NCBI GenBank assembly: GCA_039819225.1
Contig: JBCBSN010000001.1
Location: 1,969 to 65,968 of the forward strand
Direction: 5' to 3'
DNA: 64,000 nucleotides
Source of the DNA: Bacteroidota bacterium
GTDB taxonomy: Bacteria; Bacteroidota; Bacteroidia; Flavobacteriales; Flavobacteriaceae
Positions 21,512-39,636 of this stretch are shown here, piece by piece; positions within the stretch are counted from its first letter, which is position 1; each line of letters opens with the position of its first letter. The notes beneath the pieces are model-generated. The model was not told the DNA's origin, made no database searches, and was given only the letters and a program-made list of their open reading frames with translations. The position numbers and the translations under genes are program-made.

Positions 21512-21574
21512 GTAGCCTATTTAGGACAAACAAATGATAGTAACGTTTTGAGTTAGTTAAATAGTTCTTGACCG

Positions 21575-23835: not shown

Positions 23836-25797
23836 ATGGATTTTGAAATGCCGTATTGCAAAGTAAGACCCGGAAGCACATCTGTAGCATTGCTTCTTGG
23901 GGCCATGTTTTTGGCAATTATGGCATGCAGACCAGAGATTCCAAAGGAAACGCCAATGGATGACTCCGCCAGGTTGGGGCAAGTGCCCCAATGGAGCAAG
24001 GAGACCATTTGGTATCAAATCTATGTGGAACGTTTTCGCAACGGGGACCCGACCAACGATCCAAGACCGGAGGACATCGTGGAGGGATATCCCGGTTTTG
24101 TGCCCAAAAGTTGGGCCATTACCCCTTGGGGGCACGATTGGTATAAGGAGGATCCCTATTTTGAGGAAGCCCGGGGCAAGCTGGACTTGGCCGGGGACAA
24201 GATGGGGCACTTCAATCAAATGTCCCGCTTACGAAGATATGGTGGCGATTTACAGGGAGTGCTGGACAAGGTGGATTATCTGGACTCCCTGGGCATCAAT
24301 GCCGTTTATTTTAATCCCTTGAACGATGCCCCTACGGATCATAAATTCGATGCCCGCAACTGGCGGCACATAGACCGTAACTTTGGGCCGGACCCGGAAG
24401 GGGATATTCGCCTTATGGCAAAGGAAACACCGGATGATCCAACCACTTGGGTTATGACCGGCGCGGACTCCCTGTTCCTAAAAGTGGTGGATAAGTTGCA
24501 TAAAAAGGGCATCAGGGTAATCATGGACTACTCATGGAACCATACCGGCGTAAGTTTCTGGGCCTGGAAGGATCTGGTAAGGAACCAGCAGGAATCCAAA
24601 TACAAGGATTGGTATTGGGTAGAACAGTTTGATGACCCAAATACTACTGAGAACGAGTTTGAATACCACGGATGGTTCGGGGTAAAGGACCTGGTACAGA
24701 TCAAGGAAACGGAATATGTGGAACATAAAGGGGGATCCTACATTTTTGACGGGAATCTGGCCAGCGGAACGGTAAAGCAACACATGTTCAATGTAGCCAA
24801 GAAATGGCTGGATCCCAATGGGGACGGGAACCCTTCGGATGGGATAGATGGGTTTCGGTTGGACGTATGTGCGGAACTGCCCTTGGGCTTTTGGAGGGAG
24901 TTTAGAAAGGCGGTCCGCGGAGTAAACCCTGAGGCCTATCTGGTAGGGGAGACCTGGTTTGAGGTATATCCCAACAGCATGATGGATCCCGAGCCCATGC
25001 TCCGGGGCGATGTTTTTGATGCGGTCATGAACTACCGTTGGTTCAAGGCGGCAAGGGAACTGGTCACCGGGCAGATTGGATCCCGGGCCTTCGCGGATTC
25101 CATAGCGCGTATTACGGATAATTTGGCATTGGATCACAATTTTGCCATGATGAACGTGGCGGCCAGCCATGATACGCCCAGGCTCACGACCTCGTTGTAC
25201 AATAGGGATGCCAGGTACAAATATCAGGTGTCCCCCACGGAGGAAGTAGACTATAAGATAGACAGCCCCGATGCTGAGGCCTTGCAAAGCACAAAATTGT
25301 TTTTGGCCCACCAGTTTACCTATGTGGGCGCACCCCAGATTTGGGCCGGGGACGAAATGGGCATGTGGGGTGCCGATATGGGGGATACGCGCAAACCCCT
25401 CATTTGGCCGGACTATGATTTTGAACCGGAGTCGGTTCATCCCGTTGGGCGAAAAAGAGAACCGGACCCAGTGGTCTTTAACCAAGAGCTGTTCCAATAT
25501 TATCGCAAACTTATCGCTTTGCGAAAAGCGCATCCCGTTTTAAATACCGGAAGAATACAGTTCTTGGAGCTGGATGGGATGCCGGATGTAGTGGCTTACA
25601 AAAGGTTTTTGGACGATGAGGCCATACTGGTTATCCTGAACCTCGCCACGGAACCTAGGAGCGTTCCCATGGAATCCCAATTTAGGGGAAAGGATTATTT
25701 GGGCAACGCCAAGATGGTTAAAAAGGAGGACAGGAAGATAGCCCAACTACCTGCGAGATCTGCGGCCCTGTTCTCAAATCAATATTTAGATAAATGA
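23836..25797 (+). CDS. GH13 alpha-amylase/cyclomaltodextrinase-neopullulanase-type lipoprotein
   Basis: WYQIYVERFRNGD, YGGDLQGV, DYSWNH; catalytic triad DGFRLDV, LVGETW, ASHD; lipobox AIMAC. Confidence 0.92.
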   Translation: MDFEMPYCKVRPGSTSVALLLGAMFLAIMACRPEIPKETPMDDSARLGQVPQWSKETIWYQIYVERFRNGDPTNDPRPEDIVEGYPGFVPKSWAITPWGHDWYKEDPYFEEARGKLDLAGDKMGHFNQMSRLRRYGGDLQGVLDKVDYLDSLGINAVYFNPLNDAPTDHKFDARNWRHIDRNFGPDPEGDIRLMAKETPDDPTTWVMTGADSLFLKVVDKLHKKGIRVIMDYSWNHTGVSFWAWKDLVRNQQESKYKDWYWVEQFDDPNTTENEFEYHGWFGVKDLVQIKETEYVEHKGGSYIFDGNLASGTVKQHMFNVAKKWLDPNGDGNPSDGIDGFRLDVCAELPLGFWREFRKAVRGVNPEAYLVGETWFEVYPNSMMDPEPMLRGDVFDAVMNYRWFKAARELVTGQIGSRAFADSIARITDNLALDHNFAMMNVAASHDTPRLTTSLYNRDARYKYQVSPTEEVDYKIDSPDAEALQSTKLFLAHQFTYVGAPQIWAGDEMGMWGADMGDTRKPLIWPDYDFEPESVHPVGRKREPDPVVFNQELFQYYRKLIALRKAHPVLNTGRIQFLELDGMPDVVAYKRFLDDEAILVILNLATEPRSVPMESQFRGKDYLGNAKMVKKEDRKIAQLPARSAALFSNQYLDK

Positions 25798-26750
25798 TGT
25801 TAAGGAAAATTGCCCCTTTACTTGCCCTGGGCCTATGGTATGCTGGGGCACAAAGTCAGCAAGAGGCTTGGTCGCCAAAGGATCGCAATTGGTATATCGA
25901 GATGCTGTTCCCGGAAGGGAAGACCAAGGCCTTGGTACTCAGTTTTGACGATGGCCCTGTTGAGGATAGGAAAATGGTGGAATTATTGAACAAGTACGAC
26001 CTTAAGGGGACTTTTCATCTAAATTCGGGAAGATTGGGAAAGGAGAGCGTAATCGCCCCGGAAGAGGTAATGACCCTGTACAAAGGGCATGAGGTCTCCG
26101 TGCACAGTTACAATCACCTGGGAATGAACAACGTGCCCAATATTGATATGTTCTATGAAGTAGGGGAGGACCGTAGAACCCTGGAACAGTTATCCGGACA
26201 GTTGGTGCGGGGAATGGCCTATCCGTTCGGCACCCATGATCCAAGAACTTTCACCACCTTACGGGATTTAGGTATAGAATATGCCCGCACTGTTGAAGAT
26301 ACTTTTGGTTTTGGCATCCCCGATGATTTTATGTTGTGGCACCCAACCGTCCATTTGTTTGCAAAGGCGGGATATATGGGAAATCCTCCAGAAAAAGATG
26401 AAGAGGAATTCAAAAGATTTGATGCCCTCACTAAGGATTTTTTACAAAGGCAAGAGGTATCCCTGTATTATGTTTGGGGGCATAGTTGGGAGTACAAGGA
26501 TAAGTGGAGCAGGGTAGAGGCCTTTTTTAAAGAAGTGGCCCGTAAAAAGGATATCTTTTATACCACCCATATTACCTTGGTAGATTATATAAAGGCCTAT
26601 CGGCAGCTTAAAATCTCGGTGGATAAGACTCGCTTCCTGAACAAAAGTGCCACGGAAGTCTTTCTTAGGGCAACCAATTATTCGGATGTAGATCATCCTA
26701 TTGTGAAGAAGATACGGATTCCGGCGGGGGAAAGTGTAGCCTTGGATTGA
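25794..26750 (+). CDS. Polysaccharide deacetylase (CE4/NodB family)
   Basis: LSFDDG, HSYNH metal motif, AYPFG; signal peptide; ATGA overlap with the GH13 stop. Confidence 0.88.
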   Translation: MMLRKIAPLLALGLWYAGAQSQQEAWSPKDRNWYIEMLFPEGKTKALVLSFDDGPVEDRKMVELLNKYDLKGTFHLNSGRLGKESVIAPEEVMTLYKGHEVSVHSYNHLGMNNVPNIDMFYEVGEDRRTLEQLSGQLVRGMAYPFGTHDPRTFTTLRDLGIEYARTVEDTFGFGIPDDFMLWHPTVHLFAKAGYMGNPPEKDEEEFKRFDALTKDFLQRQEVSLYYVWGHSWEYKDKWSRVEAFFKEVARKKDIFYTTHITLVDYIKAYRQLKISVDKTRFLNKSATEVFLRATNYSDVDHPIVKKIRIPAGESVALD

Positions 26751-26843: not shown

Positions 26844-28934
26844 ATGATAACCACGATAAGGACATGTATATCCGCTTTGGCCCTAATATTGGTCTTTTTG
26901 GCCTGCAAGAACCAGCGGGAAAGTTCACAGGGAAAGGACTTTACGTCCAAGGTGGATGCCAATACGGCGGCCAGACAATCTTTCCAATACGCTTTTTTTG
27001 ATAGGGAAAAGAGCCCCATACCCCATCGTTTTCAGATATTACCTGCGGGTGAAGTGGTTCCCAGGGGCTGGTTGCTAAATCTTATGGAGCAGGACCTAGA
27101 ATCCGGTTTTGTTGGGGAACTGGACAATTTGGCCCCGGACATTATGAAAGGGGACGATCTTTTTAATACCACCCGAAGAAAAGATCCCAAGGCTATTCCG
27201 GATGTGGGCGACCAGGTACTCACCGGTGCGGACTGGGAGATTTCCATGCAGTGGTGGTCCGGGGAGAGCTTGGGCGTATGGTGGGACGGTTATGTGCGTA
27301 CGGCCTATCTCACGGATAACGAAGCGGCCAAAAAAAAGAGCCGGGAAATCGTGGCATATTTAATGACTACCATGGACAGTGACGGCTACTTTGGCATCTA
27401 TGGCCCCAACCTGCGCTATCAACATAGCGGATCCAATGGGGAATTATGGACAAAGACCACAGTGCTTCGGATGCTGATCGGGTATTATGAACATACCAAA
27501 GACCAGAAGGTTCTGGATTTTGTGGAGAAAGTCATGGCCGAGACCATGGATAATTATAATAAGGGCGCAAAGAGTCCTTTTAACGTAAAGGTGGATTATG
27601 GTGGCGTAACGCATGGCCTCATGATGACGGACGTCTGTGAAATGTTATATCGAATAACGGGCCATAAGAAGTACGATGACTATGCCGTATTTCTGTATGA
27701 GGATTTTTCCGAGTACCCCATAAACCGGGCGTTCAATGATGCTTGTTATGGCTATCTTATGGAAAAGGACTCCCTTTTTGAGAGCCACTCTGCCCATACC
27801 TATGAGCATTTACGCTCGGTACTACAGACCTATTATGCCACAGGCTACCCAGAAATGAAGGAGGCCTATGAAAGTGCCATGAACAAACTATCCTATTGTA
27901 TACTGCCCAGTGGCGCTGGCTTTGGCAATGAATGGTTGGACAAACAAAAAGCTAAACCAAGTACCACGGGCGCCGAGGTTTGTGGTATGAACGAGTTGAA
28001 GGATTTTTTCTTGTCCGCCCTTCAAAAAACAGGGGATGCCTCTTTCGGCGATGCCGCCGAGAAAATCACTTTTAACGCCCTCCTGGGCGCAAGGAACAAG
28101 AACGGTTCGGGCATAACGTATTGTAAAACGGACAACTGCCATATCCTGGACCGAAAGGCGCCCCAATACAATTTTGAAGAGGATGACCCGCGTTACAAGT
28201 ACTCGCCCACCCATGCGGATGCCGCCGTTTGTTGCAACCCTAGCTATGCCAGGTATTTTCCGTACTACGTGGGTAGTATGTGGATGAAAACCCAGGACGG
28301 TCTAGCCGCGGTGCTGTATGGGCCGTCGGAAGTGAAGACCTCCATTGGGGAAACGGAGGTCGCCATCCAACAAATTACCGATTATCCCTTAAAGGATGAG
28401 ATCCAATTTAAAATATCCGTTTCCGGGGCAAGGGAGTTCCCGCTCTATTTTAGGAAGCCGCAATGGACCAAGTCCATTAGCTTTCAGGGAGGGGATGCCG
28501 TTTTTGAGGATGGGTACTATAAAATTTCCAGGATATGGGAGGACGGGGATGTTGTAAAGCTTACGTTCAATAACGATATCCAAATAAAGGAGTACCACAA
28601 TGGCGAAGTGTATGCCCAAAAGGGAGCTTTGGTCTATGGATATGATATTCCTCATAAAACGGAATCCGTAAAGGAGTATCCGGTAAATGGATTTCAGGAT
28701 TATTATGTCTTCCCTACTACGGAAAGCCATAAAAACCTGGGCATACCCGTATCCGAACATCGGGAGGCCAATTTTCAGTTCGTTCAAGGCAATGCCGGGT
28801 GGGTTTCCTGGTATGATAACAATATACATCTGGCAGGTGAGATCCAGGACGCCAAGACGGGCCAGAGGAAAAAGGTAAAATTGGTTCCCATGGGCAAGAC
28901 CGTCCTTCGGAGAATCACTTTTCCCGTCAATTAA
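26844..28934 (+). CDS. GH127/GH146-like (beta-L-arabinofuranosidase-domain) cysteine glycosidase #1
   Basis: Lipobox FLAC; Zn/nucleophile motifs GAEVCG and AVCCNPS; TDYPLKDEI and KGALVY C-terminal sandwich motifs. Confidence 0.82.
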   Translation: MITTIRTCISALALILVFLACKNQRESSQGKDFTSKVDANTAARQSFQYAFFDREKSPIPHRFQILPAGEVVPRGWLLNLMEQDLESGFVGELDNLAPDIMKGDDLFNTTRRKDPKAIPDVGDQVLTGADWEISMQWWSGESLGVWWDGYVRTAYLTDNEAAKKKSREIVAYLMTTMDSDGYFGIYGPNLRYQHSGSNGELWTKTTVLRMLIGYYEHTKDQKVLDFVEKVMAETMDNYNKGAKSPFNVKVDYGGVTHGLMMTDVCEMLYRITGHKKYDDYAVFLYEDFSEYPINRAFNDACYGYLMEKDSLFESHSAHTYEHLRSVLQTYYATGYPEMKEAYESAMNKLSYCILPSGAGFGNEWLDKQKAKPSTTGAEVCGMNELKDFFLSALQKTGDASFGDAAEKITFNALLGARNKNGSGITYCKTDNCHILDRKAPQYNFEEDDPRYKYSPTHADAAVCCNPSYARYFPYYVGSMWMKTQDGLAAVLYGPSEVKTSIGETEVAIQQITDYPLKDEIQFKISVSGAREFPLYFRKPQWTKSISFQGGDAVFEDGYYKISRIWEDGDVVKLTFNNDIQIKEYHNGEVYAQKGALVYGYDIPHKTESVKEYPVNGFQDYYVFPTTESHKNLGIPVSEHREANFQFVQGNAGWVSWYDNNIHLAGEIQDAKTGQRKKVKLVPMGKTVLRRITFPVN

Positions 28935-28943
28935 AAAGTAGAA

Positions 28944-30212
28944 ATGGAGCGGTATTTTTTTACAATAGCTTTTCTTTTGGTAGCAACCGGTACTTGGGCA
29001 CAAGCATATACCTGGCCAAAAGCGGCACCGGCAACGGTGGGTATGTCCGAGGCACGCCTATCACGGCTTGACCGAATGTTGGAAAATGCGGTGAAGGAAA
29101 ACCAAATCCCAGGTGCGGTGGCCCTGATCGCCAGAAAGGGAAAACTGGTTTATCTCAAATCCCTTGGGCACTCCAATGATTCAGGGGAACCCTTGAAGAC
29201 CTCGGACATCTTCAGGATGGCTTCACAGACCAAGGCCGTTACGGCTACCGCTGTAATGATGTTATGGGAAGAAGGACATTTTTCCCTCGACGATCCCATT
29301 TCGAAATGGATTCCGGAATTTCAGAATCCAGGGATACTGGACTCGCTTTATGTGGATGGATCCTACACTACCAGCCCCGCCAATAAGGAGATTACCATTA
29401 GGCATTTAATTACACATACTTCGGGAATGGGATACGGGGTTATCGATGCTGATGAACGTTTCGGAAGAATGTATCAGGGTGCCGGGGCAACCGAGCTTTT
29501 TACCACTGAGGATATCACTATAAAAGAGAGTGTTGAAAAAATGGCCTCCTTGCCGTTGCACCACCACCCCGGCGATAAGTTTACCTATAGCGTGGGTCTC
29601 GATGTCTTGGGCTACTTTATTGAAATCATTTCTGGGATGCCCCTTGATGATTTTTTTAGGACCAGAATCTTTGAGCCGTTGGGGATGGAGGATACGCATT
29701 TTTATCTGCCCGAGAATAAAACTTCCAGATTAGTTCAGGTGCAGACCAAGGAAAACGGGCAGTGGAAACCTTTGGATGGCGGGTTTTATGACGTGGATTA
29801 TCCCAAAAAGGGAGCTCAAACTTTCTTTTCAGGGGGTGCGGGCCTGTCGGGAACGGCCGAGGACTATGCGAAATTTCTACAGATGTACCTCAATATGGGC
29901 GAGTTTAATGGAAAAAGGATTTTAAGCCGGAAAACCGTGGAATTGATTATGGCCAACCAGTTCGAGCATTTATGGCCCAACGATGGTAAATTCTATGGAC
30001 TGGCCTTCAGTATTGTCAATGAAGAGGGAAAGTCGATTGGGGGTCTGGGTAGCGAGGGCACTTTTGATTGGGGCGGATATTTCAACACCAAATACTTCGC
30101 CGATCCCAGCGAAGGCCTTATCGGAATTTTGATGAAACAGACATACGATATTGGCCCGGATCCCACGACCGAAAAATTTATGAGACTGGTTTTTCAAGCC
30201 ATTGACGATTAA
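28944..30212 (+). CDS. Serine hydrolase, beta-lactamase/class C esterase fold
   Basis: FRMASQTK (SxxK), LITHTSG, FTYS, FDWGG; signal peptide. Confidence 0.9.
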   Translation: MERYFFTIAFLLVATGTWAQAYTWPKAAPATVGMSEARLSRLDRMLENAVKENQIPGAVALIARKGKLVYLKSLGHSNDSGEPLKTSDIFRMASQTKAVTATAVMMLWEEGHFSLDDPISKWIPEFQNPGILDSLYVDGSYTTSPANKEITIRHLITHTSGMGYGVIDADERFGRMYQGAGATELFTTEDITIKESVEKMASLPLHHHPGDKFTYSVGLDVLGYFIEIISGMPLDDFFRTRIFEPLGMEDTHFYLPENKTSRLVQVQTKENGQWKPLDGGFYDVDYPKKGAQTFFSGGAGLSGTAEDYAKFLQMYLNMGEFNGKRILSRKTVELIMANQFEHLWPNDGKFYGLAFSIVNEEGKSIGGLGSEGTFDWGGYFNTKYFADPSEGLIGILMKQTYDIGPDPTTEKFMRLVFQAIDD

Positions 30213-30225
30213 AACGACATTAATT

Positions 30226-32193
30226 ATGAAAGGAAGTCCAATAGTTTACACGCTTCTGCTGGCCTCAATGGGGGCCTTGGGGTTGCAATGCACCTCGGTA
30301 AAACAGGAGAACGGCATAAAAAATTATGGCAAGTTAGAAAAAGCCAAGATTACGGAGATTGACCCGGAGGGTTGGATAGCGGAATTCCTCACCAGGCAGA
30401 AAAGTGGCCTTAGCGGTAATATAGCCAACTCAGGATATCCCTACAACACCTGTCATTGGGCCTGCCCTAAGATGGAGGGGTCCACTAAAGCCTGGTGGCC
30501 CTATGAGCAAACCTCCTATTATTTGGACGGAATCAATCGATTGGGGCTTTTGCTCGGGGATAGTGAGCTTCTTGGGATTGTGGAAAAAAATACAGAATAC
30601 GTAGAAGCAAATGTAGATTCCACCGGGCGATTTGGAACAAATCTACAGGATAGGTGGTGGCGTTGGCCCTACGCAAGCTTCAACAGAATTTACATGACCA
30701 ACTATGAAACCTCGGGAGATACGGAAATAATCTCCCTTTTGGCCGACCATTACAAAACTTTTGGGCATGAGGACTTCTGTGATGATTTAGAGCTTGCAAA
30801 CGTTGAACAGCTCTGTTGGCTTTATGAAAAGACAGGGGACGAAACGTTTATAAAAATGGGCGAAGATGCCTATGCGCGTTTCAAGTCCGATGTTACATAC
30901 AGAAACAGATTGGACAGTGATATTCAGTTTGCGGCGGATCGGGTACCGGACCACCATGGGGTAGTGTATTTGGAACTGGTGAAAATTCCGGCACTGCTAT
31001 ATAAGTATACCGGGAATGAAAATTACTTGGAAGAGTCCCTAAACGGGATCAAAAAAATGGAGCTACATCATATGCTGGTTTCGGGACTACCAAGCACTAC
31101 CGAGCATTTTGACGGGATTTCCGAGGTGGCTGGCCATGAAACCTGCAATACGGCCGTTTTTCCCCATACCTATGGATACCTGATGCGAATATCCGGGGAA
31201 TCTTGGTTAGGAGATCGAATAGAAAGAGCGGTTTTCAATGCCGGTATGGGTGCTGTGACCAAGGATTTTAAGGCACATCAATATTTTTCGGCACCCAATC
31301 AGGTTTTGGCAACAACAGATTCCAATCCCTTTGGACATCATCCCACAAGAATGGCGTATGCTCCGGGGCATGATGTAGAATGTTGTACGGGCAATGTAAA
31401 CCGGTTTATGCCCTATTATGTGGAACAAATGTGGGCAAAATCCAAGGACAATGGGCTGGTGGCCGCGCTCTATGGACCTTCCGTAATTTCAACCAAAGTG
31501 GGAAAGGACAATAGGGAAGTGACCATTAAGGAGATTACCGGGTATCCATTTTCAGAGCGTATAACATTTGAAATTTCAATGGACCACGATGAGGCAAATT
31601 TTCCGTTTTCCATGAGGATTCCCCAGTGGGCACAGGTCGCTAAAGTAACGATCAATGGGGCAGAAATTGAAGGCGAAGTACCTGCCGGGACTTTTTTTAG
31701 ACTGGAAAGGAGTTTCAAGTCCGGTGACATCATTGAATTGGAGCTTCCCATGGAAATCAGAACCAGCACATGGCCAAATAACGGACTTGCGGTAGAAAGA
31801 GGTCCCCTGGTCTTTAGTCTTACCCTGTCCGCTAAAAAAGATACCATCGCCAACTATGAAAGATCCACAGAGAGCTTTCCGGCTTATACTATGGTACCTA
31901 CCACGGAATGGCGCTATGGGCTTAGGAATGGCAATTTGGATTTTGAATTGGTTCAAAATGAAAATAAAGGATACCCTTGGGATAGGTCCAATTCGCCCCT
32001 AAAGATCAAGGTCAAGGGATTTAAGGCCAAAGGTTGGGACCTTCATACCTATTTTGACGAGCGTGTTGACAAGGAGATCACCACAACGCCAAGCTTTCCG
32101 GATAAAATCGATTTAGAGGATACGCCCAATGAATTGGAATTGGTCCCCTATGGTGCAACCACTTTAAGGCTAACTGTTTTTCCAACAATGTAA
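30226..32193 (+). CDS. GH127-like cysteine glycosidase #2
   Basis: ATG 30226 is preferred over the track start 30202. Lipobox GLQC; WWPYEQT, TTEHF, HETCN, ECCTGN, ERGPLV, ELVPYG. Confidence 0.85.
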   Translation: MKGSPIVYTLLLASMGALGLQCTSVKQENGIKNYGKLEKAKITEIDPEGWIAEFLTRQKSGLSGNIANSGYPYNTCHWACPKMEGSTKAWWPYEQTSYYLDGINRLGLLLGDSELLGIVEKNTEYVEANVDSTGRFGTNLQDRWWRWPYASFNRIYMTNYETSGDTEIISLLADHYKTFGHEDFCDDLELANVEQLCWLYEKTGDETFIKMGEDAYARFKSDVTYRNRLDSDIQFAADRVPDHHGVVYLELVKIPALLYKYTGNENYLEESLNGIKKMELHHMLVSGLPSTTEHFDGISEVAGHETCNTAVFPHTYGYLMRISGESWLGDRIERAVFNAGMGAVTKDFKAHQYFSAPNQVLATTDSNPFGHHPTRMAYAPGHDVECCTGNVNRFMPYYVEQMWAKSKDNGLVAALYGPSVISTKVGKDNREVTIKEITGYPFSERITFEISMDHDEANFPFSMRIPQWAQVAKVTINGAEIEGEVPAGTFFRLERSFKSGDIIELELPMEIRTSTWPNNGLAVERGPLVFSLTLSAKKDTIANYERSTESFPAYTMVPTTEWRYGLRNGNLDFELVQNENKGYPWDRSNSPLKIKVKGFKAKGWDLHTYFDERVDKEITTTPSFPDKIDLEDTPNELELVPYGATTLRLTVFPTM

Positions 32194-32300
32194 TCTCATC
32201 TAAATGGTTTGCTGTCAAAAGGAAATTTTAATATGAATAATATCCACACATTAAAAGAAGGCTTTGAATAACCCAAATGGCAAAGGAGTTCGAGGCCAGA

Positions 32301-32608
32301 GACCGAGCGAAGCGACCGATGAATACCCGGAAAACAAAAAGATCATGAAAAAATTTTCAAGCGCAGTTAACTCAGGGTGTACGACAAATTTCCGGTTTTG
32401 GGCATAAACTCTCTTTTTTTGGACTTCTTTTCCATGAAAAGACCCCACCCAGCCTCCCCGCCTTTGGCGGGAGGAGTTTACCTCCTTCGGAGGGATTAAG
32501 GGAGGTCAAATATCAGGCTACGGAAATTTGTCGTACACCGGTTAACTTGCTGTTAATGAGCATTTAAAATCTCTAATAACGAAGACCGAGCAGAGCGACC
32601 GATGAACA
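32301..32608. repeat. Nested repeat cassette between GH127 paralogs: direct repeat - inverted repeat - REP doublet - inverted repeat - direct repeat
   Basis: DR gaccgagcgaagcgaccgatgaata (32301-32325) / gaccgagcagagcgaccgatgaaca (32584-32608). Perfect 19-bp IR ggtgtacgacaaatttccg (32376-32394) / cggaaatttgtcgtacacc (32521-32539). GC-rich hairpin doublet at 32441-32507. Confidence 0.75.
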
Positions 32609-32711
32609 CTTAAGCAATAAAATTGAGTGAATAAATCCAAAGCCATTTGGAGAAAATGTAGGAAAAATCGAAGTTATTCAAAGCCTTCTAAAATCAAGAA
32701 TTCAATTAGTT

Positions 32712-34760
32712 ATGGAACACAAAATAGGGATGACCGTTAGTGGTGTAATAAAAGGTATTGTGGTACTACTTTCTTTACTCTGTATGAGTTGTGGGGAAAC
32801 TACGGAAGTAGATGTGGTAAAGGCAAACGTAAAGTTCCACTTGGCGGAAAGAATATCCCAAACAAAACCAAAAGGTTGGATAGCGGAATTCTTGGCCATT
32901 CAGAAGCAAGGTTTAACGGGGAATATTGAGGAGGCCGGATATCCATTTGACACAAAAATGTGGATGGAAAGGATCGAATTGGATGAAACCACACAATTGG
33001 AAAGGGATAGGAGCCCGGGATTTAATGAATATGAAGAGGATCCAGGCGTGTTTTGGTGGCCTTATGAACAGACTGGATATTATCTGGATGGGGCTATAAA
33101 AGCGGGGTATTTGATACAGGATGATTTTTTGATTGACCGAGTGAAGGAGCAAATAGCACATTTGATGGCAAACCCCATGGAAAATGGTAGGCTTGCGCCA
33201 GCCAAATTGATCGGTAGATGGAATAAATGGCCTTACACCGGAATGTTCAGGGCATTTGTGACCGAGTATGAAGAATCCAAAGATCCAAGAATAATCGAGG
33301 CCATGCACAAGCATTACTTGAGTTACAGTGCGGAAGATTTTCAAGATGAACTGGACTTGGCGAACGTTGAGCATTTATGCTGGCTTTTTGAAAAAACAAA
33401 GGACAGCACCTTGTTGAACATGGCCGAATTGTCCTATAAACTATTTAAATCCGATATAAAAAATAGGAGAAGAACAGAAAATGATGATATCGTATTTGCA
33501 TCGGACAGAATTCCAGATCAGCATGGTGTAGTGTATTATGAGCTTGTGAAGATACCTGCCATATTGTACGTAGCAACCGGGAAAAAAGAATACCTACAAG
33601 AATCTGAACACGGTATAGAGAAGATACATGACAATTTTATGCTTCCGTCCGGACATCCGAGCACTACGGAACACTTTAAGCCGGTTTCTGAAAGAGCCGG
33701 TCATGAGACGTGTAACTATTCCACCCTACCGTACGCGTATGGGTATATGTTGAGAACTACCGGGGATCCCGTTTGGGCCGATAGAATTGAAAAATCCGCA
33801 TTCAATGCCGCTTTAGGGGCCATAACAAAAGATTTTAAGGCCCATCAGTATTTTTCATCTCCCAATCAAATGATCGCCACGCACGATTCTAGCCATTTTG
33901 GATATTATCCGGAATTTACGGCCTACGACCCGGGAAAACCGGTGGCATGTTGCACAGGGAACATAAACCGTTTTATGCCATACTACGCCATGCAATTGTG
34001 GATGAAAACAAATACGAACGGGGTAGCCCTTGCACTGTATGGGCCTTCGGAATTTGTGACCGCCGTTGGTAGCCAAAAGGTAAATGTCCACTTTAGTGAA
34101 AAAACGGATTATCCGTTTGATGAAAAGATTACAATCGAGGTAAATCCTGATCGGAGGGTTAGGTTTGGACTACGTTTAAGAATCCCCTCTTGGTGTTCCG
34201 ACCCTTCTATTGAAGTTAATGGGGAAGTAGTTGATGGTGTAGTGCCAGGTTCCTTTTTTGAGTTGAACAGAACCTTTGATAAAGGAGATGTGGTGCAACT
34301 TAATTTTCCCATGGAAATTGAAATTAAAAAATGGCCTTTTGGAGCTTTTTCAGTAGAGCGGGGTCCATTGGTCTACAGCTTGCCGATAGCGCATTCGGTT
34401 AAAATCGAAAAGGATTATGACAAAGGATCCGAAGCGTTCCCGGCAATGTCGCTTTCACCTGTTTCGGACTGGCAGTACTTGCCGGATGTTTCTAGATTAG
34501 ATGATATTCAAGTAGTCAAATCGGAGGTTCATGGATATCCTTGGACTTTACAAAATACCCCGATCAAATTGAAGCTTTGGGCGAACAAAATAGAAAACTG
34601 GAATCTGAAAGAAGTGATAACGGAAGACGGGGAAAAGACAGTTTTGCAAACCCCTGAATTTCCGGATAGTTTGATGTTGGCAGAAAAGAGAGAGTTGATC
34701 GAACTTGTACCTTATGGCACTACCCTTCTAAGGGTTACGGCATTCCCTGATAGTAAATAG
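32712..34760 (+). CDS. GH127-like cysteine glycosidase #3 (close paralog of #2)
   Basis: Lipobox CMSC; WWPYEQT, TTEHF, HETCN, ACCTGN, KDFKAHQYFS, ELVPYG shared with #2. Confidence 0.85.
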   Translation: MEHKIGMTVSGVIKGIVVLLSLLCMSCGETTEVDVVKANVKFHLAERISQTKPKGWIAEFLAIQKQGLTGNIEEAGYPFDTKMWMERIELDETTQLERDRSPGFNEYEEDPGVFWWPYEQTGYYLDGAIKAGYLIQDDFLIDRVKEQIAHLMANPMENGRLAPAKLIGRWNKWPYTGMFRAFVTEYEESKDPRIIEAMHKHYLSYSAEDFQDELDLANVEHLCWLFEKTKDSTLLNMAELSYKLFKSDIKNRRRTENDDIVFASDRIPDQHGVVYYELVKIPAILYVATGKKEYLQESEHGIEKIHDNFMLPSGHPSTTEHFKPVSERAGHETCNYSTLPYAYGYMLRTTGDPVWADRIEKSAFNAALGAITKDFKAHQYFSSPNQMIATHDSSHFGYYPEFTAYDPGKPVACCTGNINRFMPYYAMQLWMKTNTNGVALALYGPSEFVTAVGSQKVNVHFSEKTDYPFDEKITIEVNPDRRVRFGLRLRIPSWCSDPSIEVNGEVVDGVVPGSFFELNRTFDKGDVVQLNFPMEIEIKKWPFGAFSVERGPLVYSLPIAHSVKIEKDYDKGSEAFPAMSLSPVSDWQYLPDVSRLDDIQVVKSEVHGYPWTLQNTPIKLKLWANKIENWNLKEVITEDGEKTVLQTPEFPDSLMLAEKRELIELVPYGTTLLRVTAFPDSK

Positions 34761-34853: not shown

Positions 34854-36287
34854 ATGAAAAAGCAAACAGAAAACGGTAAGAAAAATAATTTCACCCTGAT
34901 CTTCGTAAGTGCCATTGCCGCCTTGGGCGGTTTTCTATTTGGTTATGATACAGGTGTTATCAATGGCACCCAATTCTTTTTCAGCAAGTTTTTTGAATTG
35001 AGTCCAGCCACAAAAGGTTGGGTGGTGGGCAGTGCCCTGCTAGGCTGTTTTGCCGGGGCTCTGGTTTCCGGACCTTTGAGCAGGATGTACGGCAGAAAAG
35101 TATCGCTGATCTTGTCCGCGTTACTTTTTACCATTTCCGCGTGGGGCTCGGGGCTTCCCTCATTTTTACCACAGGCGGTGCCAATGCTGGTGGTATTCCG
35201 GATAATCGGTGGCCTTGGGATAGGGATAGCCTCTATGAACGCTCCCATGTACATCGCCGAGCTTTCTCCGGCCAATATCCGTGGTAAAATGGTCACCTTG
35301 TACCAAATGGCCGTTGTTCTCGGATTTTTTATCGTGTTCCTGGTTACCTACCAAATTGGTGCCGACAAAACCGAAGCCCATAATATAGCCCAAGGTTGGC
35401 GGATCATGTTCTGGTCGGAACTGGTGCCCTGCATCCTCTTTTTAATACTGCTTTTCTTTGTTCCTAAGAGCCCTCGATGGCTTTTGATGAAAAAAAAGGA
35501 AGAAGCCTCTATAAAGGTTTTGGCAAAAATACACGGTCTCCAAAATGCCAAGGTTACGGCTGCAGAAATCAAGGAATCCCTAAAGGAGAACAAGGCCCTA
35601 AAATTCCGCCATATTTGGGGCAAGAGTATTCTGCCCATTATTGGTATCGGCGTCGCTTTCTCTTTTTTACAGCAGTTTACGGGAATAAATGCGGTACTCT
35701 ACTATGGGTCGGATATTTTTGAAAAAGCCCTTGGGTTTGGCCAGGAAGATGTATTGGCACAGCAGATATTGTTGGCCGGTGTAAATGTATTGTTCACAGT
35801 TGTGGCCATGGCCACTGTGGATAAATGGGGAAGAAAACCATTAGTCATCTACGGGTCTTTCGGGATGCTTTTGGGATTTGCCCTCTTGGGCATTACCATT
35901 ATGACGGACACCGTAGGGCTTCTTTCATTGATCGGGATATTGTTGTTCGTTGGGGCCTTTGCCATGTCCATGGGGCCCGTGGTATGGGTGATTCTTTCGG
36001 AGATGTTCCCCAATAACATTCGGGCCATAGGCATGTCCATTGCCGTAGCTGCCCAATGGGCCGCCAATTATCTGGTTTCCCAGAGTTTTCCCATAATCGC
36101 GGAGAGCAAATTGAATACGGAGGGGATTTGGAACGGTGCCTTACCTTATTTCCTGTTTATGTTCTTTATTGTTTTGATAATTTGGTTTATGAAAAAGCGG
36201 ATGCCGGAGACCAAGGGAAAGACCTTGGAGGAAATAGAAAGTATTTGGATCGGTCGATATGGAAAATATGACGAGGAGAAAACGTAA
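34854..36287 (+). CDS. MFS sugar porter (XylE/GalP-like)
   Basis: GGFLFGYDTGVING, MYGRK, PMYIAE, PKSPRWL, QQFTGINAVLYY, DKWGRK, PETKGKTLEEIE. Confidence 0.93.
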   Translation: MKKQTENGKKNNFTLIFVSAIAALGGFLFGYDTGVINGTQFFFSKFFELSPATKGWVVGSALLGCFAGALVSGPLSRMYGRKVSLILSALLFTISAWGSGLPSFLPQAVPMLVVFRIIGGLGIGIASMNAPMYIAELSPANIRGKMVTLYQMAVVLGFFIVFLVTYQIGADKTEAHNIAQGWRIMFWSELVPCILFLILLFFVPKSPRWLLMKKKEEASIKVLAKIHGLQNAKVTAAEIKESLKENKALKFRHIWGKSILPIIGIGVAFSFLQQFTGINAVLYYGSDIFEKALGFGQEDVLAQQILLAGVNVLFTVVAMATVDKWGRKPLVIYGSFGMLLGFALLGITIMTDTVGLLSLIGILLFVGAFAMSMGPVVWVILSEMFPNNIRAIGMSIAVAAQWAANYLVSQSFPIIAESKLNTEGIWNGALPYFLFMFFIVLIIWFMKKRMPETKGKTLEEIESIWIGRYGKYDEEKT

Positions 36288-36308: not shown

Positions 36309-37520
36309 ATGAAAATCGTAAATGCCGAAGTTATTATTTGTTCGCCCGGAAGAAATTTTGTCACCCTTAAAATAGAGACGGATCAGGGTATCTATGGTCT
36401 TGGTGATGCTACTTTGAACGGACGGGAACTTGCGGTGGCCACCTACTTAAAGGAGCATCTGATTCCCTGTATTCTAGATCGAGATCCCTTTGATACCGAG
36501 GATATCTGGCAATACCTCTACCGTGGGGTGTATTGGCGAAGAGGCGCCGTAAATATGACCGCGATTGGGGCAATCGATATGGCTTTGTGGGACATTAAGG
36601 GAAAGGCCCTAGGAGTGCCCGTCCACGCCCTGATCGGGGGCAAAAGCAGGCATAAATTATTGACCTATACCCACGCACAGGGCAAGGATAGAGCCGAGAC
36701 CTTGGAAAAAATATCGGAAACCATAAGCAAGGGATTCAAGGCCGTACGGGTACAGTCCGGCGTACCGGGAATTGAAAAGATGTATGGCATTGCCAAGGGT
36801 GTGGGGTCTTATGAACCGGCTTCCCAGGGAAAAAGGCCCGATGAGGAACAGTGGAGTACCGAAAAATACCTCAATTATCTGCCCGGGCTCTTTAATGAGG
36901 TTCGCAAGGAATTCGGTGAAGAGCTACATCTCCTGCACGATGCCCATCACCGGTTAACGCCCATTGAGGCCGCTAAGTTGGGGAAAAGCCTGGAACCGTA
37001 TCATTTGTTCTGGTTGGAGGATACCGTTCCTGCGGAACACCAACAGAATTTTGAATGGATACGGAAGCATACCACAACGCCATTGGCGGTGGGCGAGGTT
37101 TTTAACACCATTTATGATTGTCAGCATCTGATTACCCAACAGCTTATCGACTATATCCGTATGACGGTGGCCCATGGCGGCGGTCTAACCCCCATGTTAA
37201 AAATTGCCCATCTGGCGGAACTCTACGGTGTGCGTACGGGATGCCATGGCCCCTCGGATCTTTCGCCCGTAAATTTGGCGGCCTGTCTCCATTTTGGGAC
37301 GGCCATCAACAATTTCGGTATCCAGGAATATATGGGCTATGATCCGGTAACTATGGAAGTGTTCCAATTGGAACACCTATTTGAGGACGGATATTTCTAT
37401 CCGAGCGAAACCCCGGGGCTAGGCGTGGATATGGATTTGGAAAAGGCAGGGAAATATCCCTATAAACAGGCATTCCTCCCGGTAAACCGATTGGAGGACG
37501 GAACAATATATCATTGGTGA
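36309..37520 (+). CDS. manD: D-mannonate dehydratase subgroup enolase (ManD/RspA-like)
   Basis: ICSPGRNFVTLKI, GDATLNGRELAV, YWRRG, YEPA loop, HDAHHR, WLED, GCHGPSDLSP, PVNRLEDGT..W. Confidence 0.88.
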   Translation: MKIVNAEVIICSPGRNFVTLKIETDQGIYGLGDATLNGRELAVATYLKEHLIPCILDRDPFDTEDIWQYLYRGVYWRRGAVNMTAIGAIDMALWDIKGKALGVPVHALIGGKSRHKLLTYTHAQGKDRAETLEKISETISKGFKAVRVQSGVPGIEKMYGIAKGVGSYEPASQGKRPDEEQWSTEKYLNYLPGLFNEVRKEFGEELHLLHDAHHRLTPIEAAKLGKSLEPYHLFWLEDTVPAEHQQNFEWIRKHTTTPLAVGEVFNTIYDCQHLITQQLIDYIRMTVAHGGGLTPMLKIAHLAELYGVRTGCHGPSDLSPVNLAACLHFGTAINNFGIQEYMGYDPVTMEVFQLEHLFEDGYFYPSETPGLGVDMDLEKAGKYPYKQAFLPVNRLEDGTIYHW

Positions 37521-37604
37521 TATTTAAAGGTAAAAAGTAGCTACTAATAATTCTTGGTTCATATAGAATAGACGTAATGAATGTACGAAAGTTTGAATTT
37601 TGGG

Positions 37605-37757
37605 ATTGGCGGGGCGCAGAAATAACGAACAAAAGGCCGGAAGTGCGGTGCGCAGCACAACGCATGAAGGCCTGGGAGTGAGAGGTGCGCAGCAATTTCC
37701 TTGGCCCGCCTTGATTTTTTGTTTCGTTTTTCATCAAGGAAAAATGAAAAAGAAACC
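37605..37757. repeat. Structured intergenic repeat-like element
   Basis: ggcggg / cccgcc outer stem, gtgcggtgcgcagcacaacgcat inner hairpin, then a ccttgat..atcaagg hairpin with a ttttgtttcgtttt..aaaaatgaaaa tail. It resembles dispersed Bacteroidota intergenic repeats (recalled). Confidence 0.5.
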
Positions 37758-37910
37758 TCTAAAGAGCACAAATTTTGTCGAGCTATTTAGGGTTTTTCTG
37801 GGGTACATTTATGCCAATTATGAGAAATAAAAAAACTGATTTGGTTTTTCCAAGCCCCTCTAGTTGTTTTAAGGACCATATTATTAATTGTAATAATGAT
37901 TTTTAATTAA

Positions 37911-38693
37911 ATGAAAAGGTTTAAAGATAAATTTCTAGTAGTTACCGGAGCCTCCAAAACAGGAGGTGTTGGGGCCAGTGTGGCCAAACTTTTTGTGGAG
38001 GAAGGGGCAAGGGTCCTTATGTTGGATATGGATGCAGAAAGTGGAGCAGAACTGCAAGAGCAACTGGGGAACGGCACCCTTTTCCTAAAGTGCGATGTAA
38101 GCTCCGAGGAGTCCGTGGCTACCTGTGTGGAAAAAGGGATTCAAAAATTTGGAGGAGTGGACTATTTGGTCAATAATGCGGCTATTTTGGGGTATACCGC
38201 GGTACATGAAACTTCACTGGAAGAATGGAACCGGATTATGAACGTGAATGTCACCGGACAGTTTCTTTGTGCAAAACACGTTATCCCGAGTATGCTAAAA
38301 AGGGGCAAAGGGGCCATTGTGAACGTGGCCAGTGCCCAATCTTTTATGAGCCAAAAAAAAGTAGCGCCCTATGTTACCTCCAAAACCGCCATTTTAGGAT
38401 TGACCCGGAGTATGGCGGTAGATTATACGCCCAAAATTCGATGTAATGCCGTATGCCCCAGTACCATAGATACCCCCATGTTACACTGGGCCCTGGAACA
38501 ATCTCCTGATCCGGATGCGGTCATGCAAGAGTGTTTGGACATGCACCTCCTGAAGCGCATTGCCCGACCCGAGGAGATTGCCTCTTTGATCGCGTTCCTT
38601 TGTAGTGACGATGCCGCCAATATTACGGGACAATCGTTCAGAAGTGATGGGGGCATAGGACTATTGATCGAAGGAAGCAAACAGGACACCTAA
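37911..38693 (+). CDS. SDR family NAD-dependent oxidoreductase
   Basis: VVTGASKTGGVG glycine motif, acidic residue after beta-2 (LMLD), NNAA, YVTSK (YxxxK), IDTP. Confidence 0.9.
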   Translation: MKRFKDKFLVVTGASKTGGVGASVAKLFVEEGARVLMLDMDAESGAELQEQLGNGTLFLKCDVSSEESVATCVEKGIQKFGGVDYLVNNAAILGYTAVHETSLEEWNRIMNVNVTGQFLCAKHVIPSMLKRGKGAIVNVASAQSFMSQKKVAPYVTSKTAILGLTRSMAVDYTPKIRCNAVCPSTIDTPMLHWALEQSPDPDAVMQECLDMHLLKRIARPEEIASLIAFLCSDDAANITGQSFRSDGGIGLLIEGSKQDT

Positions 38694-38727
38694 TGTCAAT
38701 GGATTTGTACAGGGTAAAAATGAAAAC

Positions 38728-39636
38728 ATGCAAATAAGGGAGCATACGGTAAAAGGAATTGATCTTGTTGATGTCCTAGACGCCCAAGACCAACTGTTAT
38801 TACGAGTAGCACCGGGTTTTGGAGCCAAGGTTATGGAACTTAATCTGCCTGTAAAAGGAAATATAGAACCCATTCTTTGGAAGGTCAATTTTGAGGAGCT
38901 CCATACCAATGAATTCGGAAAAAATGATATCCTTTTTCCGTTTCCCAACCGCGTGGAGGATGGCCAGTATGAATATCAGGGAAATCGATATGATTTTCCC
39001 ATCAACGAAAAGGAATACAACAATAGCATTCATGGTTTTGTCCGGGAGAGGGAATTTCACCTAAAGCAGCAAGAAAGCGGGTCGAATGAGGTAAGAATTA
39101 CATTTGAATACCAGTATAAAGGCGAACTGTACTATCCTTTTCCCTTTCACCTTGAAGTAGGTTATACACTGCGGCCCGGGGTTTTTCAAATTTCATTTAC
39201 CATAACCAATATTGGGAATACCACTTTTCCTTACGGATTAGGATGGCACCCCTACTTTGTTCAGGAGGAAAGTGGGGATACCAAGGTACAGCTGCCGGAT
39301 TCTACGGAACATATGGCCGGGGAAAGGTATTTGCCCATTGGAAAAGTCAGTACTTGGAATAAGAGGATGTTTAGACCAGGGGATTCCTTGTATAATGTAA
39401 CCTTGGAATTGGAAGACAGCAGCCCAAGCTACGTATTTTGTTCTGGTCGCAGGGGAGTGAGAATTATCCCCTCCGCCGATTTTGGGTTTTTGCAGATTTA
39501 TACCCCGCCACAAAAAAACGTTATTGCCTTGGAGCCCATGACCTGTGGGATAAACGCCTTTAATACCGGTATTGGGCTAAGGGAGCTCGGAGCAGGGGAT
39601 AGCTTTGATGCGTATGTGGCCATTAACTTGGTTTAG
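38728..39636 (+). CDS. Aldose 1-epimerase (mutarotase) family protein
   Basis: LFPFPNRVEDG, SIHGFV, GLGWHPYF, LQIYTP, IALEPMT. Confidence 0.88.
   Translation: MQIREHTVKGIDLVDVLDAQDQLLLRVAPGFGAKVMELNLPVKGNIEPILWKVNFEELHTNEFGKNDILFPFPNRVEDGQYEYQGNRYDFPINEKEYNNSIHGFVREREFHLKQQESGSNEVRITFEYQYKGELYYPFPFHLEVGYTLRPGVFQISFTITNIGNTTFPYGLGWHPYFVQEESGDTKVQLPDSTEHMAGERYLPIGKVSTWNKRMFRPGDSLYNVTLELEDSSPSYVFCSGRRGVRIIPSADFGFLQIYTPPQKNVIALEPMTCGINAFNTGIGLRELGAGDSFDAYVAINLV

What the first reader, a model, noticed from the sequence alone, without database searches (positions are those of the whole stretch)
36309..39636. Pro-type (low-efficiency) ManD/RspA dehydratase in a context that could reveal its true substrate
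Seen: GCHGPSDLSP, with Pro at the specificity position after beta-strand 7, next to an NAD-type SDR and a mutarotase. No lactonase, KDG kinase or aldolase is in the window. Established (recalled from work on the ManD subgroup): Ala-type members are efficient D-mannonate dehydratases, while Pro-type members such as RspA are weak or promiscuous on mannonate/gluconate and often lack a known physiological role. Inference: the real substrate is the aldonate made by the adjacent SDR from the sugar that the GH127s release.
Basis: partly seen in the sequence, partly recalled or inferred. Interest (0 to 1): 0.55.

Follow-up and report, generated by a model that had tools for sequence, protein, structure and literature searches.

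The report
Oxidative sugar pathway using ManD dehydratase
At the end of a glycan-degrading gene cluster, a marine flavobacterium carries a sugar importer, a ManD-type sugar-acid dehydratase, a sugar 1-dehydrogenase and a mutarotase that most likely break down a neutral hexose (probably mannose) by oxidation instead of phosphorylation, which gives a believable natural role to a supposedly weak class of ManD enzymes, though similar routes have already been proposed elsewhere.

Summary
ORF 36309-37520 is a full ManD-subgroup enolase-superfamily dehydratase with every catalytic residue. It carries GCHGPSDLSP (37239-37268), with Pro315 at the position of P317 in C. salexigens ManD and A314 in N. 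aromaticivorans ManD. An SDR and an aldose 1-epimerase follow, and a sugar-porter MFS precedes.

The SDR is not a fructuronate reductase. Its closest solved relatives are the D-mannose-preferring Thermoplasma aldohexose dehydrogenases (AldT). The genome has a separate canonical UxuB-UxuA pair.

A species of the same genus keeps the whole cluster and adds an SMP-30 lactonase between the SDR and the mutarotase. That completes a mutarotase, dehydrogenase, lactonase, dehydratase route. KdgK and Eda lie elsewhere in the genome.

The MFS-ManD-SDR core recurs in a Flammeovirgaceae MAG, and ManD-SDR in a Eudoraea MAG, both without GH127 genes. These four ManDs form one Pro-type clade that arose independently of the RspA and Halomonadaceae Pro clades. 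"Low efficiency" therefore cannot simply be carried over.

Best reading: an oxidative, non-phosphorylative aldohexose route to KDG, most likely from D-mannose. The sugar and its link to the GH127-like enzymes remain unproven. Other agents of this scan read similar cassettes in other genomes. I score it as a new member of a known kind, of moderate interest.

The parts
34854..36287 (+). Sugar-porter family MFS transporter (XylE/GlcP-like), the importer of the neutral sugar
   Evidence: Pfam Sugar_tr 399 bits. NCBIfam sugar porter TIGR00879 at 388.7 bits against a 237.8 cut-off. 87% identical in G004 and 70% in L015, in the same position upstream of ManD.
36309..37520 (+). ManD-subgroup enolase-superfamily aldonate dehydratase, Pro type (Pro315)
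   Evidence: R147, Y159, D211, H213, E237, E263, R284 and H313 are all present.
37239..37268 (+). Motif GCHGPSDLSP; the Pro315 codon is at 37251-37253
   Evidence: Alignment to 3ow1, 4il2, 3vcn, 4gme and 4fi4.
37611..37750 (.). Dispersed repeat of about 140 nt, inserted in the 390-nt ManD-SDR spacer
   Evidence: Eight other near-full-length copies at 83-89% identity (137-174 nt) on other contigs, plus fragments on a ninth (C3). Internal GGTGCGCAGCA x3 and flanking inverted repeat. In G004, ManD and SDR are 1 nt apart.
37911..38693 (+). NAD-type classical SDR, AldT-like aldohexose 1-dehydrogenase candidate
   Evidence: Best solved relatives are 3vtz (212.6 bits) and 2dtd/2dtx AldT (181 bits). 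NCBIfam 'aldose dehydrogenase' 272.9 bits (below the 341 cut-off) and glucose 1-dehydrogenase subfamily 220 bits (above 215). 85% identical in G004, 71% in L015, 51% in L016, always next to ManD.
38728..39636 (+). Aldose 1-epimerase (mutarotase)
   Evidence: Pfam PF01263 127.7 bits. B. subtilis aldose 1-epimerase structures are the best PDB hits. 52% identical in G004.
26844..34760 (+). Upstream secreted enzymes: GH127-like a (26844-28934), beta-lactamase-fold esterase-like (28944-30212), GH127-like b (30202-32193), GH127-like c (32712-34760). These are possible but unproven suppliers of the sugar.
   Evidence: Pfam. Signal or lipoprotein N-termini. E-x-C and C-C zinc/nucleophile motifs kept in all three. 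Syntenic in G004.
15387..26750 (+). SusC/SusD/SusE-like genes, membrane AraC regulator, GH13 and CE4: an alpha-glucan-type PUL on the same strand (all co-directional)
   Evidence: Pfam. The GH13 stop overlaps the CE4 start. 71-86% identical and collinear in G004.

Best explanation
Genes 34854-39636 encode a cytoplasmic, oxidative (non-phosphorylative) route for a neutral aldohexose, most likely D-mannose.

The proposed steps are these. The sugar-porter MFS imports the free sugar. The mutarotase supplies the anomer the dehydrogenase uses. The AldT-like NAD-dependent SDR oxidises C1 to the aldonolactone. The lactone opens spontaneously here, whereas the sister species has an SMP-30 lactonase for this step. 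The ManD-subgroup dehydratase removes water from D-mannonate to give 2-keto-3-deoxy-D-gluconate (KDG). KdgK and Eda, encoded on another contig, then yield pyruvate and glyceraldehyde 3-phosphate.

Shown: gene identities, catalytic residues, synteny, the lactonase in the sister genome, purifying selection, and a separate canonical UxuB-UxuA pair. Inferred: the reaction order, the identity of the sugar, and the catalytic efficiency.
For: ManD membership and an intact active site. The SDR's nearest solved relatives are the Thermoplasma aldohexose dehydrogenases; 2dtx is, by recall, the AldT-D-mannose complex. The SDR does not rank as D-mannonate oxidoreductase: PRK08277 is absent from its 25 best families, while the genome's own UxuB on C131 scores 419 bits on that model.

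G004, of the same genus, has MFS-ManD-SDR-SGL lactonase-mutarotase at 52-87% identity. L015 has MFS(70%)-ManD(74%)-SDR(71%). L016 has a 6PGL-like gene divergently upstream of ManD(69%)-SDR(51%). Six of 13 phylum homologues of the SDR at about 50% identity sit next to an SGL lactonase, which marks the subfamily as lactone-forming sugar 1-dehydrogenases.

For MFS, ManD and SDR against G004, pN is 0.08-0.09 and pS is 0.72-0.78. A KdgK-Eda pair lies on C14. In the EFI survey, as I recall it (papers not held), ManD-subgroup enzymes dehydrated only D-mannonate and/or D-gluconate. An AldT-plus-mannonate-dehydratase route works in vitro with Thermoplasma enzymes (PMC6901390). The same kind of route is predicted for Coxiellaceae (PMC13252051) and for haloarchaea (PMC10963439).
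Against: No enzyme was assayed. The SDR has Leu where AldT has Glu84, the residue that contacts the mannose C2-OH by recall of Yasutake 2007 (PMC3891874 mentions only 'a glutamate'). Mannose specificity is therefore not carried over by residues. The three closest SDRs also have a 2-residue insertion in the Gly-rich loop.

No known mannose-releasing hydrolase is in the cluster. The adjacent PUL looks alpha-glucan-directed (GH13), which would give glucose. The lactonase is missing in this genome. A repeat element separates ManD from the SDR. If Pro-type really means low efficiency, flux through ManD would be poor and UxuA could do the work. Most SDR homologues at about 50% identity are not next to any mannonate dehydratase.
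Confidence: 0.6

Rival explanations
1. The same oxidative module acts on D-glucose released from the alpha-glucan that the adjacent Sus-like/GH13 PUL degrades. The SDR would be a glucose 1-dehydrogenase and ManD would act as a D-gluconate dehydratase. The result would be a semi-phosphorylative Entner-Doudoroff-like branch.
For: The GH13, SusCDE-like genes and a regulator with starch-binding-like modules lie on the same strand and are syntenic in G004. The SDR passes the NCBIfam glucose 1-dehydrogenase subfamily cut-off, 220 bits against 215. By recall, several Pro-type ManD-subgroup enzymes dehydrate D-gluconate.
Against: L015 and L016 carry the ManD-SDR pair without any GH13. The closest solved SDRs prefer mannose. 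Flavobacteria normally phosphorylate glucose. The PRK07231 model is very broad; unrelated SDRs also pass it.
Confidence: 0.17
2. The module handles an unusual aldose released by the rare GH127-like enzymes. The Pro-type ManD then dehydrates an aldonate that is neither mannonate nor gluconate, which would be a new specificity in the ManD subgroup.
For: Tight co-directional synteny with three GH127-like genes in two species. The GH127b/c subtype is rare, found in 1 other of 400 phylum genomes. The ManD clade differs from the family consensus at G57D, A74V, P80A, T82N and A326C. The SDR lacks the AldT Glu and has a loop insertion.
Against: All catalytic residues are canonical; substrate-contacting residues could not be mapped. 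The module exists without GH127 in L015 and L016. By recall, no ManD-subgroup member is known to use any other acid sugar. Known GH127 products (L-arabinose, aceric acid, 3,6-anhydro-D-galactose) do not give mannonate-like aldonates, and the genome has a separate dauABCD-like set for anhydrogalactose.
Confidence: 0.17
3. This is the ordinary hexuronate route: the SDR is a fructuronate reductase (UxuB-type) feeding D-mannonate to ManD.
For: SDR-ManD pairs of that kind are common beside Ala-type ManDs (L019, L032, L045, L067).
Against: Those SDRs are only 30-33% identical to this one and belong to another subfamily. The true UxuB of this genome sits next to UxuA on C131. The transporter is a neutral-sugar porter. 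The mutarotase, and the lactonase in G004, have no role in that route. No uronate isomerase is in the window.
Confidence: 0.03

Closest known systems
Thermoplasma acidophilum AldT (Ta0754) plus mannonate dehydratase: the proposed oxidative D-mannose route (PMC6901390; Kopp et al. 2019, cited there)
   Same: An NAD-dependent SDR aldohexose 1-dehydrogenase is followed by dehydration of mannonate to KDG. The window's SDR has AldT and its T. volcanium relative as its best solved matches.
   Different: The archaeal dehydratase is not a ManD-subgroup enolase-superfamily enzyme (by recall it is UxuA-like). There is no transporter, mutarotase or lactonase operon there. The window's SDR has Leu at the AldT Glu84 position. 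Here the module sits at the end of a Bacteroidota PUL.
Low-efficiency ManD-subgroup enzymes RspA (E. coli, 4il2) and CsManD (C. salexigens, 3ow1), with L-gulonate and L-idonate pathways (Wichelecki et al. 2014, recalled; not held)
   Same: Same subgroup, 58-62% identity to their close genomic relatives (E. coli and Halomonadaceae loci). Pro at the same position. A UxuA coexists in the genome.
   Different: Pro originated independently. The neighbours here are an aldose dehydrogenase, a mutarotase and a sugar porter. By recall, the gulonate and idonate routes instead have Zn-ADH or mannitol-dehydrogenase-family enzymes and acid-sugar transporters.
Predicted Coxiellaceae mannose cluster CBU_1275-1277 (PMC13252051)
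   Same: The Coxiellaceae MAG locus L030 has sugar porter - SDR - Pro-type ManD in one run. The reading there is also mannose to mannonate to KDG.
   Different: That SDR is only 25% identical and belongs to another subfamily, PRK06198. The ManD clade is separate. There is no mutarotase or PUL. It is also untested.
Canonical UxuB-UxuA hexuronate branch
   Same: It ends in D-mannonate to KDG, then KdgK and Eda.
   Different: It uses non-homologous enzymes. It is present separately in this genome on C131.

Membership tests
ManD subgroup of the enolase superfamily | MR_MLE N- and C-terminal domains, and a family-level profile match above the curated cut-off | tested here: met
   Pfam PF02746 and PF13378. 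NCBIfam NF043051 ManD at 674.9 bits against a 550 cut-off. Best PDB hits are all ManD-subgroup entries.
ManD subgroup of the enolase superfamily | Arg147-Tyr159 base dyad, His212 acid, Mg ligands Asp210/Glu236/Glu262, and Arg283 (2QJJ numbering; PMC4570537) | tested here: met
   R147, Y159, D211, H213, E237, E263 and R284 are present. Numbering is offset by +1 after the 160s loop.
ManD subgroup of the enolase superfamily | Dehydration of D-mannonate and/or D-gluconate to KDG | not testable with these tools
   Needs an enzyme assay.
Low-efficiency (Pro-type) ManDs such as RspA and CsManD | Pro at the position of CsManD P317 / NaManD A314 | tested here: met
   Pro315 aligns with the Pro of 3ow1 and 4il2, and with the Ala of 3vcn, 4gme and 4fi4.
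Low-efficiency (Pro-type) ManDs such as RspA and CsManD | Common descent with the characterised low-efficiency clades | tested here: not met
   A separate Bacteroidota Pro clade (SH-aLRT 97) lies among Ala-type sequences. At least 5-7 Ala/Pro changes are needed on the tree (quick tree).
Low-efficiency (Pro-type) ManDs such as RspA and CsManD | kcat/KM of about 10-100 per M per s; a UxuA coexists in the genome | tested here: inconclusive
   UxuA is present on C131 at 442 bits. Kinetics are not testable here.
AldT-type SDR aldohexose 1-dehydrogenase | Classical SDR fold with the Ser-Tyr-Lys triad, NNAG motif and an acidic residue at the beta-2 end (NAD preference) | tested here: met
   S141, Y154, K158, NNAA and Asp39.
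AldT-type SDR aldohexose 1-dehydrogenase | Closest characterised relatives are AldT enzymes | tested here: met
   3vtz at 212.6 bits and 2dtd at 181.1 bits; the next hit is 165 bits.
AldT-type SDR aldohexose 1-dehydrogenase | Glu84 contacting the axial C2-OH of D-mannose (Yasutake 2007; residue number by recall, PMC3891874 mentions only 'a glutamate') | tested here: not met
   NNAGIE in AldT and 3vtz aligns with NNAAIL here. The position is N, L, Q or M across the bacterial subfamily.
UxuB-type (SDR) D-mannonate oxidoreductase / fructuronate reductase | Match to NCBIfam PRK08277 above its 281-bit cut-off | tested here: not met
   PRK08277 is not among the 25 best families of the window's SDR, where the lowest listed score is 163 bits. 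The genome's C131 SDR scores 419 bits.
Oxidative non-phosphorylative aldose pathway (dehydrogenase, lactonase, dehydratase, then KDG kinase/aldolase) | All steps encoded together | tested here: inconclusive
   The dehydrogenase, dehydratase, mutarotase and transporter are in the window. The lactonase is present only in the syntenic G004 cluster, with only distant SGL genes in this genome. KdgK and Eda are on contig C14.

The most novel reading that the evidence does not exclude
This independently arisen Pro-type ManD clade, together with its unusual AldT-like SDR (Leu in place of the sugar-C2-binding Glu, and a 2-residue insertion in the NAD loop), catabolises a so far unrecognised aldose. That sugar would be released by a rare GH127-like subtype from an acylated alpha-glucan-associated marine glycan. 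The ManD subgroup would then gain a third, new aldonate specificity, and the GH127-like enzymes a new glycosidase activity.
Probability: 0.15. Interest if true: 0.75.

Novelty: new member of a known kind. Interest (0 to 1): 0.4.

Why it matters
The physiological role of many ManD-subgroup enzymes, especially the Pro-type ones, is still uncertain. Here a Pro-type ManD sits in a conserved module under purifying selection, with an aldose dehydrogenase, a mutarotase, a sugar porter and (in the sister species) a lactonase. That gives a concrete, easily assayed hypothesis: oxidative mannose catabolism in Bacteroidota.

It also shows that the Ala/Pro switch has flipped several times, so the switch cannot be used as a clade marker. 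If confirmed, this would be bacterial evidence for a route so far demonstrated only with purified archaeal enzymes. It would also tie that route to a polysaccharide utilisation locus.

Tried and rejected
1. The Wichelecki et al. 2014 ManD papers could not be read by DOI or PMC id. The Ala/Pro efficiency rule therefore rests on recall plus residues in named PDB entries.

3. A metagenome scan with the SDR found no close relatives; the best was 38% identical.

4. I tested whether phylum homologues of the SDR at about 50% identity sit beside UxuA or ManD, which would have fixed mannose. Only one of 13 has a UxuA-like gene within 8 kb and one has a distant enolase-superfamily gene. Six have an SGL lactonase. 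This supports a sugar 1-dehydrogenase but does not identify the sugar.

5. The 3,6-anhydro-D-galactose idea (GH127 plus an enolase-superfamily cycloisomerase) was rejected. The genome has a separate dauABCD-like set with a sulfatase and a true GH127 on C118. ManD is only distantly related to the anhydrogalactonate cycloisomerases. A mutarotase and a lactonase do not fit an open-chain sugar.

6. The L015 neighbour that Pfam calls GH130 is a generic five-bladed propeller by PDB search, so I do not use it as evidence for mannosides.

7. The sigma-70 promoter and terminator scan gave no more sites than shuffled sequence.

8. A literature search on GH127 from 2022 onward found no new specificity that links to mannose.

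9. The careful tree did not finish in time, so the quick IQ-TREE result was used.
Full report
**What is there.**
- ORF 36309-37520 (403 aa) carries MR_MLE_N and MR_MLE_C. It passes the NCBIfam ManD equivalog model at 674.9 bits against a 550 cut-off. Its best solved relatives are all ManD-subgroup structures, with E values from 1.9e-174 down to about 1e-158.
- The catalytic set given for N. aromaticivorans ManD in PMC4570537 is complete: the Arg147-Tyr159 dyad, Glu262 and Arg283, plus Asp210, His212 and Glu236. Here these are R147, Y159, D211, H213, E237, E263 and R284.
- GCHGPSDLSP is residues 311-320, nt 37239-37268.
- Aligning the C-terminal third to PDB chains puts Pro315 on P317 of C. salexigens ManD (3ow1) and on the Pro of E. 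coli RspA (4il2). The Caulobacter enzymes 3vcn, 4gme and 4fi4 have Ala there.
- Among the 80 closest genomic homologues the first motif search gave 39 Pro and 38 Ala. The count is 44 to 38 once the three unmatched rows, the window and G004 are included.
- The EFI papers that tie Ala or Pro to efficiency are not held. That link remains recall.

**The neighbours.**
- The gene upstream (34854-36287) is a sugar-porter MFS, a neutral-sugar/H+ symporter type.
- ORF 37911-38693 is a classical SDR with S141, Y154 and K158, and with Asp39 at the end of beta-2, so it is NAD-type.
- Its best solved relatives are the Thermoplasma aldohexose dehydrogenases: 3vtz at 212.6 bits and AldT 2dtd/2dtx at 181 bits. 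The next hit scores 165 bits. AldT prefers D-mannose (PMC6901390, PMC3891874).
- NCBIfam ranks "aldose dehydrogenase" first at 272.9 bits, below its 341 cut-off. D-mannonate oxidoreductase (PRK08277) is not among the 25 best families.
- ORF 38728-39636 is an aldose 1-epimerase.
- None of the three cytoplasmic enzymes has a signal peptide. The upstream GH13, CE4, three GH127-like proteins and the beta-lactamase-fold protein all do.
- None of the window ORFs of 150 aa or more that were scanned is a lactonase, PfkB kinase or KDPG aldolase.

**Comparative evidence.**
- A species of the same genus (G004) has the whole cluster in the same order: SusC, SusD, SusE, AraC, GH13, CE4, GH127a, beta-lactamase-fold, one GH127b/c, MFS, ManD, SDR, mutarotase. 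Identities are 45-87%.
- In G004, ManD and the SDR are 1 nt apart. A 301-aa SMP-30/gluconolactonase gene (SGL, 229.8 bits) lies between the SDR and the mutarotase.
- That completes the standard layout of an oxidative aldose pathway: mutarotase, 1-dehydrogenase, lactonase, aldonate dehydratase.
- In the window's genome that lactonase is missing. Only distant SGL genes exist on two short contigs.
- Mannonolactone is reported to open spontaneously at neutral pH (PMC6901390), so the loss need not break the route.
- Between the two species, MFS, ManD and SDR have pN of 0.08-0.09 against saturated synonymous sites (pS 0.72-0.78). They are under purifying selection.
- Outside the genus, a Flammeovirgaceae MAG (L015) has MFS(70%)-ManD(74%)-SDR(71%). 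A Eudoraea MAG (L016) has ManD(69%)-SDR(51%) next to a 6-phosphogluconolactonase-like gene. Neither has GH127 genes.
- In a sample of 400 genomes of the phylum, 11 have an SDR about 50% identical. Six of the 13 loci carry an SGL lactonase next to it. This marks the subfamily as lactone-forming sugar dehydrogenases.
- Only one of those loci has a UxuA-like gene within 8 kb, so they do not identify the sugar.

**The ordinary hexuronate route is excluded for this locus.**
- The genome has a canonical UxuA (442 bits) on contig C131. It is preceded by an SDR that scores 419 bits on the D-mannonate oxidoreductase model, and followed by KduI and KduD.
- SDRs next to Ala-type ManDs in Acidobacteria and Bacteroidales are only 30-33% identical to the window's SDR. 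They belong to the gluconate-5-dehydrogenase/KduD/UxuB-like group.
- A KdgK-Eda pair on C14 can take KDG onwards.

**Phylogeny of the Pro residue.** A quick IQ-TREE of 82 ManDs was used because the careful search did not finish.
- It puts the window, G004, L015 and L016 in one Bacteroidota clade with SH-aLRT 97. All four are Pro-type.
- That clade is nested in a strongly supported (99) group that is mostly Ala-type.
- The enterobacterial RspA clade, the Halomonadaceae clade, an actinobacterial clade and a Coxiellaceae clade are separate Pro groups.
- At least 5-7 Ala/Pro changes are needed on the tree.
- "Pro-type" is therefore a recurrent state, not a lineage. Low efficiency measured for RspA or CsManD cannot simply be transferred.
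- The Coxiellaceae MAG locus (L030) also reads sugar porter - SDR - ManD. A 2026 preprint predicts mannose oxidation for the C. burnetii cluster CBU_1275-1277 (PMC13252051). The SDR at L030 is a different subfamily, at 25% identity.

**Which sugar.**
- In favour of D-mannose: the nearest characterised SDRs prefer mannose. By recall, ManD-subgroup enzymes are known to act only on D-mannonate and D-gluconate. Mannose is mostly the alpha anomer, which gives the mutarotase a role.
- Against certainty: the AldT glutamate that contacts the mannose C2-OH is Leu here, and N, L, Q or M in the bacterial subfamily.
- The three closest SDRs share a 2-residue insertion in the Gly-rich loop.
- The ManD clade departs from the family consensus at five otherwise conserved positions: G57D, A74V, P80A, T82N and A326C.
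- The adjacent PUL looks alpha-glucan-directed. D-glucose, then gluconate, then KDG is therefore a live rival.
- The three GH127-like proteins keep the E-x-C and C-C zinc/nucleophile motifs. They are remote from characterised GH127 enzymes, at 50-61 bits on the Pfam catalytic model, whereas the true GH127 on C118 scores 304 bits.
- The b/c subtype was found in only one other of 400 phylum genomes (G148, 38% identity). There it again lies beside two GH13 genes, two GH31 genes and an esterase, with an Eda-UxuB-UxuA run 18 nt upstream of the first GH31.
- That second association of this GH127-like subtype with a mannonate dehydratase is suggestive. But it is a single case and may be chance.

**Verdict.** Attribution of the sugar to the GH127-like enzymes is unproven. 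The expectation of an exotic substrate is less likely than plain D-mannonate.

Other agents of this scan read comparable cassettes in other genomes, namely an acidobacterial SDR-ManD-SMP30 operon and a decayed UxuA/epimerase/lactonase/AldT-like cassette. Oxidative mannose routes are proposed in the literature for Thermoplasma, haloarchaea and Coxiellaceae. I therefore class this as a new member of a known, still untested kind, of moderate interest.

Noticed in passing
window 37521-37910 (core about 37611-37750): The 390-nt ManD-SDR spacer holds a dispersed repeat of about 140 nt. It has GGTGCGCAGCA three times between inverted arms. Eight other near-full-length copies at 83-89% identity lie on other contigs, plus fragments on C3. 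In the sister species the two genes are 1 nt apart, so this is an insertion that may uncouple transcription.
   Followed up: partly
window 32194-32711: The 518-nt gap between GH127b and GH127c is also built of dispersed repeats. Two different elements are present, each with many copies across the genome.
   Followed up: partly
L165/L166 (G148:C1:1160000-1192000): The only other phylum genome found with the GH127b/c subtype (38% identity) has it beside two GH13 genes, two GH31 genes, an alpha/beta-hydrolase and several T9SS-tailed proteins. An Eda-UxuB-UxuA run lies 18 nt upstream of the first GH31. This is a second, independent association of this GH127-like subtype with alpha-glucan enzymes and a mannonate dehydratase.
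   Followed up: partly
own genome contig C118 (L136:2014-11519): A complete dauABCD-like 3,6-anhydro-D-galactose set: RhaT-like transporter, enolase-superfamily cycloisomerase-like gene, aldehyde dehydrogenase, KDPG-type aldolase and PfkB kinase. A sulfatase and a high-scoring true GH127 follow. This points to a carrageenan-using marine flavobacterium.
   Followed up: partly
own genome contig C7, about 12680-15750: A UxuA-like paralogue (32% to UxuA), a sugar-porter MFS (40% to the window's MFS) and an SDR (30%) lie in one minus-strand run. This may be another sugar or sugar-acid module.
   Followed up: no
window 37944-37973 (SDR residues 12-21): The Gly-rich NAD loop reads TGASKTGGVG, a 2-residue insertion relative to TGxxxGxG. 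Only the SDRs of G004 and L015, which are the ManD-linked ones, share it.
   Followed up: no
window 43684-45036 (minus strand) and L015:3535-4881: A second sugar-porter MFS lies 4 kb downstream of the mutarotase. It is 45% identical to the first of two tandem MFS genes that precede ManD in L015. It may be a displaced member of an ancestral two-transporter module.
   Followed up: no
L108:6088-6993 (G004) compared with window 38694-38727: The SMP-30 lactonase gene present between the SDR and the mutarotase in the sister species is absent here. Only 34 nt separate the two genes, and no close copy exists elsewhere in the assembly.
   Followed up: yes
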